A stretch of 64,000 bases of DNA from IMG/VR virus record IMGVR_UViG_3300022407_006250, positions 36,786 to 100,785 of that record; one strand, written 5' to 3'. The notes under the pieces are model-generated. The model saw only the letters and a list, made by a program, of their open reading frames with translations. It was not told where the DNA came from and did no database searches. The stretch comes from a virus. The position numbers were made by a program, and so were the translations under genes. Below, in pieces: positions 25,334-26,980 of the stretch; the first letter of the stretch is position 1, and every line of letters starts with the position of its first letter.

Positions 25334-25417
25334 GCCCCGGTGGCGAAATGGTATACGCAAGAGACTTAAAATCTCTCGTCGAGAGGCATGCCGGTTCGAG
25401 TCCGGCCCGGGGCACCA
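25334..25417 (+). tRNA. tRNA-Leu(TAA)
   Basis: GCCCCGG/CCGGGGC acceptor, AGAGA-CTTAAAA-TCTCT, long variable arm, CCA. Confidence 0.95.
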
Positions 25418-25626
25418 TATTGAAGCATATTGGTGTAAGATGGAGTCGCTCTCCCATTATTCAGTAGCACTGATAAAATCTAGTATATTTCAATATGGTG
25501 TACGAAAGTCACTATATTAAAACGCATTCAACGGCAAACAGGATACCTAGCAACTGGACGCAGGGGCTATCCAAATAGTAGGGCACTACAGCCGAAAGCT
25601 AGGAAAAGAGTGTGTTTCAATATGGT
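25413..25626 (+). ncRNA. Two tandem long-stem structured elements with related closing helices
   Basis: 25413-25433 pairs with 25480-25500; 25511-25529 pairs with 25608-25626; both 3' arms end in TTTCAATATGGT. Confidence 0.55.
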
Positions 25627-25636
25627 AATGAAGTCT

Positions 25637-25721
25637 GGAGAAGAAGCATCAATGGTGATGCAGTGGACTGTAAATCCGCCACCCTCGGGTATGACTGGTT
25701 CGATCCCAGTATTCTCCACCA
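25637..25721 (+). tRNA. tRNA-Tyr(GTA)
   Basis: GGAGAA/TTCTCC acceptor, GTGGA-CTGTAAA-TCCGC, long variable arm, CCA. Confidence 0.92.
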
Positions 25722-25731
25722 AACAATCTAT

Positions 25732-25806
25732 CGCGGGGAGGGTCTGGTCACCAGCGAGGTCTCATAAGCCTTTGCCATCCTTGGTTCAAATCCAGGTCCC
25801 GCAACC
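25732..25806 (+). tRNA. tRNA-Met(CAT), initiator-like
   Basis: CGCGGGG start with C1:A72 mismatch, CTCATAA loop, TTCAAAT T-loop; reduced D-arm. Confidence 0.8.
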
Positions 25807-25937
25807 CAATTATAAACAGTCATGGTGTAATGTAAGGGAAACATACGAGAAGTCCGAGAGTCGCAAGATGTTAGGCAACCCATGCTCAAATGGTTGGTTT
25901 GATTCCAACCCACCAGTTTTAAATAAAAAGGATTTAA

Positions 25938-26144
25938 ATGAACTCTCAGTATCGTGAACGAGCTGTGGCCATGCTACAGCAAATTAAAACTTTTCCTGCT
26001 GGATCAGGCATTAAACACATAAAGACCGGGCGGGTGTATACAGTAGACCATGTGCATATCCAAGATTATAATTTATTGATTCATACAGCTGACAAACAGG
26101 TTTTTCAAGCAAAGAAATATACTGTATTAAAGAATATTAAGTAA
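25938..26144 (+). CDS. Hypothetical protein
   Basis: AAGGA RBS, 68 aa. Confidence 0.6.
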   Translation: MNSQYRERAVAMLQQIKTFPAGSGIKHIKTGRVYTVDHVHIQDYNLLIHTADKQVFQAKKYTVLKNIK

Positions 26145-26165
26145 TAAATACTAAATACATCGAGT

Positions 26166-26260
26166 ACATAACTGATGAGCCTGGAAGGGCGAAACGATAT
26201 TGGAACTTGTAGAGTCGTTCGGGAACCGTAAAGGGGACTCTCGTTCCAATCGTATTATGT
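26166..26260 (+). ncRNA. Type I hammerhead ribozyme
   Basis: Stem [13 protein letters not shown], core CTGATGA, stem II GCCT-GGAA-GGGC, GAAA, stem III CGAT..TGGAAC/GTTCCA-ATCG, cleavage triplet GTA (26252-26254). Confidence 0.88.
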
Positions 26261-26467
26261 TAAATATATTGCAATAAGGTGACTATCCAAAGAACTTAAA
26301 AATAAAACCAAATATATTGTTAAAGGGTGTAAAGCCCTTGTCACTTTCTATTATGCGTAATAGAAATACTCTTATAAGTCTAAAAAATGTTAGATGAATA
26401 ATTGCATGTTTATCATGCAATGGAGATTGATACTCTTATATATGGTGTCAACAATGTGAAAACAATG

Positions 26468-26493
26468 AAGCCCACCATGGTGGGCTTTCTCTT
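26468..26493 (+). terminator. Probable terminator
   Basis: AAGCCCAC-CATG-GTGGGCTT followed by TCTCTT. Confidence 0.7.
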
Positions 26494-26506
26494 TGGAAGT
26501 TTTTTA

Positions 26507-26980
26507 TTGACACAGTCGGAACATGACGTTATACTGAAGGCTAAGTTAAACACAAAGGAGCACAGCATGAAAGTTTTTGTATACTTTAATCTTCATAAGA
26601 AAGTTTTTAGTGTTCGCGCAATGGAAGGCGAAAACAAAGGCCGTGTGATTGCTCACACCACAACTGTTGAACTGCGCGATGCTGTGTTCAAAGTATCCCA
26701 GGCAGGGCGTGAACGAGTGCTCAAAGAAAAGCGTAAAAATGTACACGCTGGTGTACAAGGGCAATGGGTTGCATGGTCGGGCGACAATGTGGATGACCTT
26801 GATGCTGTCACATATAACCCCTACAAGTATAGCAGCTTTGTTACTGTTGCTGACCAAACACCGGTTCGAACTGCTGCTCGTGCTGTGTTGAACAATCGCA
26901 AAATACAAGCTCAACTCACAAATTAATTGACACAGTTGGAACATGATGTTATACTAAGGGCTAAGTTAAACACAAAGGAA
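26507..26980 (+). repeat. Duplicated ~54-bp promoter + leader + RBS cassette (26507-26560 and 26927-26980)
   Basis: TTGACACAGTYGGAACATGAYGTTATACT..GGCTAAGTTAAACACAAAGGA in both copies. Confidence 0.9.
26567..26926 (+). CDS. Hypothetical phage protein (start corrected to MKVFVYFNLHK)
   Basis: Promoter and AAGGAG directly upstream of 26567. Confidence 0.75.
   Translation: MKVFVYFNLHKKVFSVRAMEGENKGRVIAHTTTVELRDAVFKVSQAGRERVLKEKRKNVHAGVQGQWVAWSGDNVDDLDAVTYNPYKYSSFVTVADQTPVRTAARAVLNNRKIQAQLTN

What the first reader, a model, noticed from the sequence alone, without database searches (positions are those of the whole stretch)
26145..26493. Late promoter, hammerhead ribozyme and ORF-free multi-hairpin RNA ending in a terminator
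Seen: TAAATA boxes at 26145 and 26152; a complete type I hammerhead (26166-26260) with an unusually long, branched stem III; predicted cleavage after 26254. About 235 nt follow with no credible ORF but serial hairpins: GTGAC/GTCAC (26279/26340), AAGGG/CCCTT (26323-26339), TTTCTATTA/TAATAGAAA (26345-26366), ATTGCATG/CATGCAAT (26401-26421), TTGATAC/GTGTCAA (26427-26451), then a terminator. Inference: self-cleavage makes the defined 5'-OH end of a stand-alone structured ncRNA and/or trims the upstream tRNA-operon transcript. Phage hammerheads are known; I do not recognise the downstream RNA.
Basis: partly seen in the sequence, partly recalled or inferred. Interest (0 to 1): 0.75.

Follow-up and report, generated by a model that had tools for sequence, protein, structure and literature searches.

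The report
Hammerhead-released noncoding RNA in phage
An uncultured giant phage carries a genuine, evolutionarily conserved self-cutting hammerhead ribozyme. The ribozyme should cut free a roughly 240-base gene-free RNA that ends at a terminator, and the same ribozyme-plus-RNA unit recurs in a few other uncultured phages, but its job is unknown.

Summary
A complete type I hammerhead lies at 26166-26260, with predicted cleavage after A26254. It is the only such motif in the 100.8-kb record. 300 shuffled genomes gave 0.01 loose matches each and no strict match.

Rfam misses the ribozyme because stem III carries a 58-nt insert. Five further lineages in IMG/VR phage contigs carry a similar insert. 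Four keep all of its features: a UUGU (or UUGA)/C internal loop, a second helix and an invariant GUUCGGGA. L385 keeps UUGUAG but not the octamer. On the five-lineage alignment (window plus those four), 97.9% of cells pair and 15 of 30 pairs show compensatory changes.

In these five lineages the ribozyme is followed by an ORF-free 233-405 nt RNA, a terminator or terminator-like hairpin, and a TTGAC-type promoter. L385 has a terminator, but its promoter was not checked. A core of about 135 nt in the window's downstream RNA is homologous to the relative L270 (z 8.9).

The relatives also have a roughly 300-nt 5' domain that the window lacks. The ATAAATA box matches a genome-wide, orientation-biased promoter-like motif, but it is untested.

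Function is unknown, and no RNA data could be obtained. Earlier notes of this scan describe similar hammerhead-containing phage ncRNAs on other DNA.

The parts
26144..26157 (+). Two promoter-like boxes: AATAAATA ending at 26150, and CTAAATA at 26151-26157. This is a candidate T4-late-type promoter about 16 nt upstream of stem I.
   Evidence: Sequence. In windows of 80 nt upstream of ORFs, ATAAATA occurs 19 times in sense and 3 times in antisense; shuffles give 5.5 +/- 2.1. The sense sites lie mostly 22-47 nt before start codons, and 13 of 19 are preceded by G. The box here is preceded by A. It has not been tested as a promoter.
26166..26260 (+). Type I hammerhead ribozyme. Stem I is 26166-71 with 26255-60. 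CUGAUGA is 26172-78. Stem II with its GGAA loop is 26179-90. GAAA is 26191-94. Stem III is 26195-26252. The cleavage triplet is G26252-U26253-A26254, with the cut predicted after 26254.
   Evidence: The custom covariance model R1 scores it at 96.5 bits. Covariation: 97.9% of cells paired and 15 of 30 pairs compensatory.
26195..26252 (+). Extended stem III. Helix IIIa is 26195-26206 with 26243-26252, with an AU bulge. The internal loop is UUGU 26207-10 opposite C26242. Helix IIIb is 26211-16 with 26236-41. The invariant octamer GUUCGGGA is 26217-24. The variable hairpin IIIc is 26225-35.
   Evidence: The same layout, with UUGU (UUGA in L270)/C, GUUCGGGA and CUCG kept and the helices covarying, is found in L230, L270, L318 and L348.
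26255..26495 (+). Predicted 3' cleavage product: an ORF-free RNA of about 240 nt with a 5'-OH, ending at the terminator.
   Evidence: The core 26276-26408 aligns collinearly with the 3' domain of L270 (z 8.9, 0 of 300 shuffles).
26276..26292 (+). Box A: a Shine-Dalgarno-like conserved element, AAGGUGACUAUCCAAAG. Relatives have AAGGAGAUAUAUYCAAAG.
   Evidence: Alignments.
26323..26366 (+). Conserved core. Hairpin B is 26323-26339. The anchor UCACUU is 26341-26346. Hairpin C is 26345-26366.
   Evidence: In all five lineages a GGG/CCC hairpin, 3 nt, YCRCUU and a hairpin starting at offset +4 occur in that order, with compensatory changes. A profile built only from relatives has its single hit in the whole record at 26325-26357.
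26401..26451 (+). Two window-specific hairpins (26401-08/26414-21 and 26427-33/26445-51). The second has one G-U pair that would be an A-C mismatch on the minus strand.
   Evidence: They were not found at matching positions in relatives.
26468..26495 (+). Intrinsic terminator: an 8-bp G+C-rich stem with a 4-nt loop, followed by a U-rich tail.
   Evidence: A terminator lies at the matching place in L270, L318, L348 and L385, and an imperfect one read by eye in L230.
26507..26535 (+). Sigma-70-type promoter (TTGACA, 17 nt, TATACT) of the next gene, a Phage_L5_gp82 family protein at 26567-26926. It marks the end of the RNA unit.
25938..26144 (+). Upstream 68-codon ORF with an AAGGA ribosome-binding site. 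Its stop codon lies 21 nt before stem I. If there is read-through from the tRNA cluster (25334-25808), its mRNA would end with the ribozyme.
   Evidence: It has no Pfam family and no relative in IMG/VR. No plus-strand terminator lies between 25284 and 26468.

Best explanation
This is a small stand-alone RNA gene unit of the phage.

Transcription arrives either by read-through from the tRNA cluster and the 68-codon ORF, or from the ATAAATA box at 26144-26150. It then passes through a type I hammerhead. The ribozyme folds co-transcriptionally and cuts after A26254.

Because the ribozyme is type I, nearly all of it stays on the upstream fragment, which ends in a 2',3'-cyclic phosphate. This includes the conserved stem-III insert. 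The downstream fragment starts at U26255 with a 5'-OH, carries only six ribozyme nucleotides, and runs about 240 nt to the intrinsic terminator at 26468-26495.

The ribozyme therefore acts as an insulator. Whatever promoter fires, the downstream non-coding RNA has the same ends and is separated from the tRNA/mRNA transcript.

The unit is a reduced member of a small, unnamed family of hammerhead-containing non-coding RNAs in uncultured phages. Full-size members have a 5' domain, the hammerhead and a 3' domain. The window has only the last two.

Shown: the motif, its conservation and covariation, the shared architecture, and partial homology of the 3' RNA.

Inferred: cleavage in vivo, the transcription start, and that the released RNA, rather than the cut itself, is the functional product.
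For: - The hammerhead core and helices are complete, and it is unique in the record. The minimum-free-energy fold equals the hammerhead fold.
- Homologues exist in L230 (same sequence in L236 and L291), L270, L318 (same in L317 and L319) and L348. They keep the same stem-III insert while the helices change. 97.9% of cells pair, 15 of 30 pairs have changes on both sides, 0 of 500 shuffles reach this, and slid controls pair at about 40%.
- The whole hammerhead segment aligns to L230 and L270 at 70-72% identity (E 1e-9), while the flanks do not.
- In all five lineages the hammerhead is followed by 233-405 nt without a conserved ORF, then a terminator, then TTGAC-17-TATAAT within about 20 nt. L230's terminator is imperfect and was read by eye.
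- The 3' core is homologous to L270 (z 8.9). The only hit of a relatives-only profile in 201,570 searched bases falls at 26325-26357, on the right strand.
- Hairpins B and C flank a YCRCUU anchor in every lineage and show compensatory changes.
- The plus-strand fold is 7.6 kcal/mol more stable than the minus-strand fold.
- Perreault et al. 2011 (PMC3088659) document hammerheads in phage and prophage transcripts and propose transcript processing as their role.
Against:
- Rfam hammerhead models do not reach their thresholds.
- A full-length 3'-domain profile built from relatives does not find the window. The core-profile hit alone has E 0.57. Homology of the 3' RNA rests mainly on one pairwise comparison.
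- Three of the five hairpins are not conserved.
- Folding z-scores are the same on both strands.
- The covariation alignment was fitted to the model and has only five distinct sequences.
- No loop-loop or pseudoknot contact between stems I and II could be identified, so fast cleavage at cellular Mg2+ is assumed rather than shown.
- The window lacks the conserved 5' domain of the relatives, so it could be a decaying remnant.
Confidence: 0.6

Rival explanations
1. The ribozyme is only a transcript-processing or 3'-end-forming device for the upstream tRNA/ORF transcript. The cut leaves the upstream RNA capped by a very stable, conserved stem-III structure and a cyclic phosphate. The 240 nt downstream are a spacer that is degraded and has no function of its own.
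For: - The type I layout keeps the whole ribozyme on the upstream product.
- The most strongly conserved non-core element, GUUCGGGA with its helices, lies in the ribozyme and not in the downstream RNA.
- The 3' region is poorly conserved overall.
- No terminator separates the tRNA cluster from the ribozyme.
- Perreault et al. proposed operon processing for phage hammerheads.
Against: - The downstream region keeps a collinear core with L270 and ordered elements in all lineages.
- Its own terminator follows in all six lineages examined.
- In relatives the upstream partner is a non-coding 5' domain, not a tRNA or mRNA. A generic 'mRNA 3'-end' role therefore does not explain the family.
Confidence: 0.2
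2. The ribozyme plus RNA is a remnant or passenger of a mobile cassette that moves between phage genomes, possibly helped by homing endonucleases or by the repeated promoter units. The window's copy is a decaying fragment that lost its 5' domain and no longer functions.
For: - The unit sits between unrelated genes in different phages.
- Only the hammerhead segment is alignable to the window by BLAST.
- The window lacks the 5' domain and has the shortest 3' domain.
- In L387 an HNH-like ORF interrupts the hammerhead core.
- 54-bp promoter-RBS repeats flank the next gene.
Against: - The window's hammerhead core is intact at every conserved position, and its helices are fully paired through compensatory changes. 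Decay would not leave this pattern.
- The terminator and the core hairpins are intact.
- Close relatives (98%, 92% and 85% identical neighbouring proteins) keep at least the last roughly 150 nt, as their read-through ORFs show.
Confidence: 0.12
3. The hairpin-rich, A+T-rich stretch at 26255-26500 is a DNA-level element, such as a protein-binding site, an origin or a recombination site. The hammerhead beside it is unrelated to it.
For: - The hairpins are near-perfect palindromes, and both strands fold equally well against shuffles.
- Two 10-11-nt direct repeats lie in the stretch: AAATATATTG at 26262 and 26310, and ATACTCTTATA at 26366 and 26430.
Against: - The orientation relative to the hammerhead and the terminator is fixed in every lineage.
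- The conserved hairpins change by compensatory substitutions rather than keeping their sequence.
- The plus strand is more stable by 7.6 kcal/mol thanks to G-U pairs.
- No copy of these repeats occurs elsewhere in the record.
Confidence: 0.05

Closest known systems
Type I hammerhead ribozymes of phages and prophages (Rfam RF00163, clan CL00010; Perreault et al. 2011, PMC3088659)
   Same: The catalytic core (CUGAUGA, GAAA, GUA cleavage triplet), three helices with stem I open, a 6-bp stem I and a 4-bp stem II capped by a GNRA loop. My model R1 also matched about 100 ordinary type I hammerheads in IMG/VR phage loci, up to 11 per 14 kb. The intergenic position in a phage transcript is also shared.
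   Different: Stem III carries a 58-nt insert that is conserved in sequence and structure: a UUGU/C internal loop, helix IIIb, an invariant GUUCGGGA and hairpin IIIc. This insert keeps it below every Rfam threshold. Among all hammerheads recovered, only the lineages linked to this non-coding RNA have it. L385 has a variant that keeps UUGUAG but not the octamer.
Hammerhead-containing large non-coding RNAs of uncultured phages noted earlier in this scan (e1-5919408, e1-3298893, e1-5374331), and the full-size relatives found here (L230, L270, L318, L348, L385)
   Same: An ORF-free unit with a built-in type I hammerhead and a terminator, and no Rfam family. The window shares the hammerhead subtype and a 3' core with the loci found here.
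   Different: The window lacks the roughly 300-nt 5' domain, which has conserved loops UCCCACCCAAGAAG and UGGAAGG. It has the shortest 3' domain. It is preceded by tRNA genes and a small ORF, and no sigma-70-type promoter of its own was evident. I could not link the earlier notes to these loci by sequence.
Engineered ribozyme insulators such as RiboJ (a satellite-RNA hammerhead placed at the 5' end of a transcript; from my own knowledge)
   Same: It works the same way. Self-cleavage removes promoter-dependent upstream sequence, so the downstream RNA always has the same 5'-OH end.
   Different: This one is natural, is type I rather than type III, and is followed by a non-coding RNA instead of an mRNA. 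This is an analogy of mechanism only, not a family relationship.
Stable RNAs of unknown function in the phage T4 tRNA cluster (species 1 and 2, rnaC and rnaD; from my own knowledge)
   Same: Small non-coding RNAs of unknown function encoded next to, and probably co-transcribed with, phage tRNA genes.
   Different: The T4 RNAs are matured by host RNases, not by a ribozyme.
Large ornate phage-associated RNAs GOLLD and ROOL (Rfam; Weinberg et al. 2017, PMC5737381)
   Same: Structured non-coding RNAs in phage genomes, which from my own knowledge often lie near tRNA genes.
   Different: No match to these or any other Rfam family, even at permissive E-values, in the window or in relatives. To my knowledge those RNAs have no hammerhead.

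Membership tests
Hammerhead ribozyme, type I | Conserved core: C3-U4-G5-A6-N7-G8-A9, G12-A13-A14, and A15.1 paired with U16.1 | tested here: met
   CUGAUGA is at 26172-78 and GAAA at 26191-94, with A26194 opposite U26253. These positions are invariant in all five lineages.
Hammerhead ribozyme, type I | Cleavage triplet NUH (H is not G), with N paired in stem III | tested here: met
   The triplet is G26252-U26253-A26254, and G26252 pairs with C26195. GUA is kept in all five lineages; L385 has AUA.
Hammerhead ribozyme, type I | Three helices around the core, with stems II and III closed, stem I open, and no mispair next to the core | tested here: met
   The descriptor match has stem lengths 6, 4 and 4+. 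The minimum-free-energy structure agrees. The pairs adjacent to the core are G-C, A-U and C-G.
Hammerhead ribozyme, type I | Helices supported by covariation in homologues | tested here: met
   97.9% of cells paired, 15 of 30 pairs compensatory, 0 of 500 shuffles reach this, and slid controls pair at 34-42%. Caveats: only five sequences, and the alignment was fitted to the model.
Hammerhead ribozyme, type I | Score at or above the Rfam gathering threshold (RF00163 34 bits; RF00008 48.5 bits) | tested here: not met
   There is no hit at gathering. RF00008 gives a partial 17.3 bits. RF00163 does not report the locus at all. The relative L348 scores 21.4 bits. The likely cause is the long stem-III insert, which the 45-position model does not allow for. 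This was not tested.
Hammerhead ribozyme, type I | Tertiary contact between stems I and II (loop-loop or pseudoknot) needed for fast cleavage at low Mg2+ | tested here: inconclusive
   I found no complement to the GGAA loop in the flanks of stem I by inspection. A GNRA-to-minor-groove contact with the conserved stem I is possible but cannot be tested with these tools.
Hammerhead ribozyme, type I | Self-cleavage activity | not testable with these tools
   This needs an in vitro transcription assay or end-specific RNA-seq.
Hammerhead-linked phage ncRNA family found here (unnamed) | Hammerhead whose stem III has the UUGU/C loop, helix IIIb, GUUCGGGA and hairpin IIIc | tested here: met
Hammerhead-linked phage ncRNA family found here (unnamed) | 3' domain with box A, hairpin B, the YCRCUU anchor and hairpin C, followed by a terminator and then a sigma-70-type promoter | tested here: met
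   Architecture, order of elements, homology to L270, and the core-profile hit. The similarity is weak: it is not significant against L230 or L318, and a full-length profile finds nothing.
Hammerhead-linked phage ncRNA family found here (unnamed) | Conserved 5' domain (hairpin loops UCCCACCCAAGAAG and UGGAAGG, UGCGGGCA, a T-arm-like hairpin) | tested here: not met
   It is absent from the window and from the whole 100.8-kb record. The record is estimated to be only 28% complete.
T4-type late promoter | A TATAAATA-like box that recurs upstream of genes in sense orientation | tested here: inconclusive
   The box is AATAAATA, a 7 of 8 match to the T4 consensus. The genome's own motif is GATAAATA: 19 sense against 3 antisense, 22-47 nt before starts. 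No transcription start is known, and I did not search for a late sigma factor.
Intrinsic (Rho-independent) terminator | G+C-rich hairpin followed by a U tract | tested here: met
   The stem at 26468-87 has 8 bp, 5 of them G-C, with 5 U in the next 8 nt. The palindrome could also act on the minus strand.
Known large or phage-associated ncRNA families in Rfam (GOLLD, ROOL, HEARO, freshwater motifs and others) | A match to the family covariance model | tested here: not met
   There is no match at E up to 10 in the window region, and none in relatives.

The most novel reading that the evidence does not exclude
The window carries the minimal form of a previously undescribed class of modular phage non-coding RNAs built around a specialised hammerhead.

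The invariant GUUCGGGA bulge and the UUGU/C loop in stem III would form a docking site for a protein or for another RNA domain. Self-cleavage would then produce two working parts. One is a ribozyme-capped upstream RNA ending in a cyclic phosphate. The other is a 5'-OH RNA that escapes 5'-end-dependent decay and accumulates during infection as a regulatory or decoy RNA.
Probability: 0.3. Interest if true: 0.78.

Novelty: new variant of a known kind. Interest (0 to 1): 0.6.

Why it matters
Hammerheads have been catalogued in phages for 15 years, but their roles there are still largely unknown.

Here the ribozyme is physically and evolutionarily tied to a defined, ORF-free, terminator-ended RNA. 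It also carries a conserved structured insert that the ordinary phage hammerheads recovered here lack. This gives a concrete, testable unit with a predicted cut site, predicted product ends and a candidate docking motif. That unit can be used to ask what self-cleaving ribozymes do for DNA phages.

The case also shows that Rfam hammerhead models miss members with large stem-III inserts, so such ribozymes are probably undercounted.

Tried and rejected
**Searches that did not reach the target**
- Rfam at gathering and at permissive thresholds gave no hammerhead call and no family for the downstream RNA.
- Neighbouring proteins were used to reach relatives. The GP88-like protein gave 33 loci. The gp82-like protein gave 80 viral and 80 metagenome loci. 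None shares synteny or the non-coding region.
- An exact 24-mer of the ribozyme has no match in IMG/VR.
- The 68-aa ORF has no relative in IMG/VR.
- GenBank phages have no match to the window unit or to the full RNA of L270.
- The genome contigs pattern scan gave 21 hits, and none is a hammerhead by model R1.
- Five complete large phage records (170-385 kb) have no R1 match at E 0.01 or better.

The ENA and Logan contigs encoding P0001, P0002 and P0011 could not be read. Only their read-through ORFs gave a glimpse of the last roughly 150 nt.

**Analyses that failed or were uninformative**
- MAFFT alignments of the 3' domain are not consistent with the structure. RNAalifold found only hairpin B and the terminator.
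- An energy-based control for anchored hairpins did not discriminate.

**Ideas considered and dropped**
- A group I intron reading of the relatives' AAAUUGCGGG motif: no Rfam support.
- Conserved mini-ORFs after the Shine-Dalgarno-like box: the frames and start codons are not conserved.
- Pairing of the YCRCUU anchor with the 5'-domain loop: mismatches in L318 and L385.
- Pairing of GUUCGGGA with the 3' strand of hairpin B: not kept in the window.
- A T-loop or K-turn reading of the stem-III motifs: they do not fit the consensus.

Full report
**Setting.** The window is bases 36786-100785 of a 100,785-bp IMG/VR virus record that CheckV rates as 28% complete, so it is probably a fragment of a very large phage. 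The finding lies in a plus-strand region. That region holds tRNA genes (Leu 25334-25417, a Tyr-like tRNA 25637-25718, a CAT-anticodon tRNA 25731-25808). It also holds a 68-codon ORF (25938-26144) and, downstream, genes of the mycobacteriophage L5 gp82 and GP88 families, each with its own TTGACA-type promoter.

**The observation.**
- Stem I: ACAUAA 26166-71 pairs with UUAUGU 26255-60.
- Core: CUGAUGA at 26172-78 and GAAA at 26191-94.
- Stem II: GCCU-GGAA-GGGC at 26179-90.
- Stem III: a 58-nt structure at 26195-26252.
- Cleavage triplet: G-U-A ending at 26254.

A descriptor that requires the core, the three helices and the type I topology finds exactly this one site in the whole record. In 300 Markov shuffles of the record it found 0.01 loose matches per genome and no match as good as the real one. 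The minimum-free-energy fold of 26160-26266 reproduces the three-way junction.

Rfam does not call it. Nothing passes at gathering. RF00008 gives a partial 17.3 bits, and RF00163 gives nothing at this place. The short Rfam models probably cannot absorb the stem-III insert.

**Relatives.** Searches through neighbouring proteins did not reach syntenic relatives. A pattern scan of IMG/VR for a hammerhead with a 4-bp stem II and a GNRA loop returned 119 loci, in which my descriptor found 151 type I hammerheads. Several contigs carry 8-11 of them within 14 kb. This is the situation Perreault et al. described for prophages (PMC3088659).

Among these loci, L230 (identical in L236 and L291) and L270 carry an 87-nt hammerhead whose stem III is plainly homologous to the window's. 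Two more specific scans added L318 (identical in L317 and L319) and L348. BLAST aligns the whole hammerhead segment of L230 and L270 to window 26166-26262 at 70-72% identity (E 1e-9), and nothing else in the flanks.

**The stem-III insert and covariation.** All five lineages share one layout:
- helix IIIa, 8-10 bp of free sequence;
- an internal loop, UUGU (or UUGA) opposite a single C;
- helix IIIb, 6 bp;
- the invariant octamer GUUCGGGA;
- a variable hairpin IIIc.

I built covariance model R1 from three sequences with this structure and used it to align all five. On that alignment 97.9% of cells form standard pairs. 15 of 30 pairs have changes on both sides, including 8 of the 10 pairs in helix IIIa. 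No shuffle out of 500 reaches any of the five measures, and sliding the partners by 1-3 columns drops pairing to 34-42%. The core nucleotides never change.

There are two caveats: only five sequences, and an alignment fitted to the model. Even so, this shows that the hammerhead is a conserved, selected structure and that the 'unusually long, branched stem III' is a defining feature of a subfamily.

**The downstream RNA.** In all five lineages the hammerhead is followed by 233-405 nt without a conserved ORF, then an intrinsic terminator, then a TTGAC-17-TATAAT promoter within about 20 nt. L230's terminator is imperfect: the scan did not call it, and I read it from the alignment.

The window's version is the shortest. 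Its similarity to the relatives is weak but real.
- Window 26276-26408 aligns collinearly with the 3' domain of L270 (score 65 against 28 +/- 4 for dinucleotide shuffles, z 8.9, 0 of 300 shuffles). The comparison with L348 gives z 2.4. L230 and L318 are not significant.
- The relatives are clearly homologous to one another (z 4-9.5) and to L385.
- A profile of the core built from relatives only has a single hit in the 201,570 bases of the record (both strands). That hit is at window 26325-26357, on the plus strand. E is 0.57, but the location is the predicted one.
- A profile of the full-length 3' domain finds nothing.

The shared elements come in the same order in every lineage: a Shine-Dalgarno-like box (AAGGUGACUAUCCAAAG at 26276), a GGG/CCC hairpin (26323-39), 3 nt, the anchor YCRCUU (26341-46), and a hairpin that starts at offset +4 of the anchor (26345-66). 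That last hairpin shows compensatory differences at four offsets.

Folding energy does not decide the strand (z -4.3 and -4.4), although the plus strand is 7.6 kcal/mol more stable.

**What the window lacks.** The relatives have a conserved, clearly structured 5' domain of about 300 nt upstream of the hammerhead. It contains hairpins with covarying stems and conserved loops UCCCACCCAAGAAG and UGGAAGG, a GNRA hairpin and a T-arm-like hairpin. In L348 a TTGACA-17-TATAAT promoter stands at its start.

This domain is absent from the window and from the whole record. Three further loci bear on how the parts combine.
- L385 comes from a complete 369-kb phage. It has the 5' domain, a variant hammerhead (UUGUAG kept, GUUCGGGA not) and the 3' domain.
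- L386 has the 5' domain but no hammerhead within about 1.2 kb.
- In L387 an ORF with an HNH-like motif interrupts the hammerhead core.

The family is therefore modular, and the window holds the hammerhead plus 3' domain only.

**The promoter.** ATAAATA occurs 19 times in sense and 3 times in antisense orientation in the 80 nt upstream of ORFs (shuffles give 5.5 +/- 2.1). It clusters 22-47 nt before start codons and is preceded by G in 13 of 19 cases. The box at 26144-50 is AATAAATA. A T4-late-type promoter is therefore plausible, but no start site is known. Read-through from the tRNA cluster is equally possible, because no plus-strand terminator lies between 25284 and 26468.

**Mechanism.** I read the unit as a ribozyme-insulated RNA gene. 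Whatever transcript enters, the hammerhead cuts after A26254. The upstream RNA keeps the ribozyme with its conserved insert and a 2',3'-cyclic phosphate. The downstream RNA of about 240 nt starts with a 5'-OH at U26255 and ends at the terminator.

The motif, its covariation and the shared architecture are shown. Cleavage in vivo, the transcript ends and a function for the released RNA are inferred.

The main rival is that only the cut matters and the downstream RNA is a spacer. I rate that at about 0.2, because the downstream core, its terminator and its order of elements are kept across lineages whose flanking genes differ.

**Comparison with known systems, and novelty.** The ribozyme meets every sequence and structure criterion of a type I hammerhead but fails the Rfam score test. 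The associated RNA matches no Rfam family and no GenBank phage. Three literature searches found nothing on it.

Earlier notes of this scan describe hammerhead-containing non-coding RNAs of about 0.3-0.9 kb in other uncultured phages. These are probably the same kind of thing, but I could not link them by sequence.

I class the finding as a new variant of a known kind: a known ribozyme class with a conserved new insert, tied to an undescribed RNA.

**Limits.** No RNA data were available. The closest relatives could not be fetched. There are only five or six lineages, and the 3' homology rests on weak similarity.

Noticed in passing
window 25820-25915: Between the CAT-anticodon tRNA and the 68-codon ORF lies a tRNA-like stretch. 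It ends in a T-arm-like hairpin (GGUUGG-UUUGAUU-CCAACC) followed by CACCA. Neither ARAGORN nor Rfam calls it.
   Followed up: no
window 25637-25718 and 25731-25808: The two tRNA finders disagree. Rfam calls 25637-25718 (anticodon GUA, 35.4 bits) and ARAGORN does not. ARAGORN calls tRNA-Met(CAT) at 25731-25808 and Rfam does not, even at E up to 10.
   Followed up: no
whole record (window and the 36.8 kb before it): GATAAATA is a strong, orientation-biased motif 22-47 nt upstream of many start codons: 19 in sense against 3 in antisense. It probably marks the phage's own late-type promoter class.
   Followed up: partly
window 26506-26559 and 26926-26979: Two 54-bp promoter-plus-RBS units, 92.6% identical, bracket the gp82-family gene.
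   Followed up: no
window 26402-26926: Public gene calls in close relatives (168- and 174-aa proteins such as P0001 and P0126) extend the 119-aa gp82-family ORF upstream through the terminator and the sigma-70-type promoter. This is almost certainly an annotation artefact.
   Followed up: partly
window 26262-26271 / 26310-26319 and 26366-26376 / 26430-26440: There are two short direct repeats inside the predicted 3' RNA: AAATATATTG and ATACTCTTATA. Neither occurs elsewhere in the record as a repeat family.
   Followed up: partly
L387:11673-12162: In this relative the hammerhead core is interrupted after CGA by an ORF with an ERHHIIP motif. It has a weak Pfam match to the HNH/EndoVII-superfamily family AHH (E 0.002, below the cut-off). 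The contig ends before the other half of the ribozyme could be seen.
   Followed up: partly
L230:3071-3370, L270:7654-7953, L318:12359-12658(-), L348:1413-1712(-), L385, L386, L387: A conserved, structured 5' domain of about 300 nt precedes the hammerhead in relatives. It has covarying hairpins with conserved loops UCCCACCCAAGAAG and UGGAAGG and a T-arm-like hairpin. It matches no Rfam family, and in L386 it occurs without a hammerhead nearby.
   Followed up: partly
L235, L263, L302, L279, L309, L240, L254, L255, L301: These IMG/VR phage contigs carry 5-11 type I hammerheads within about 14 kb. All have a 6-bp stem I and a 4-bp stem II, and many copies within a contig share the same stem I sequence.
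   Followed up: no
L348:1060-1256(-): The hairpin B, anchor, hairpin C module of the 3' domain appears twice in tandem in this relative.
   Followed up: no
L063:1672-1718, L130:908-954, L131:2672-2718; L101:3436-3484, L149:466-514: Unrelated type II and type I hammerheads lie within 0.1-1.3 kb of gp82-family genes in other phage contigs.
   Followed up: no
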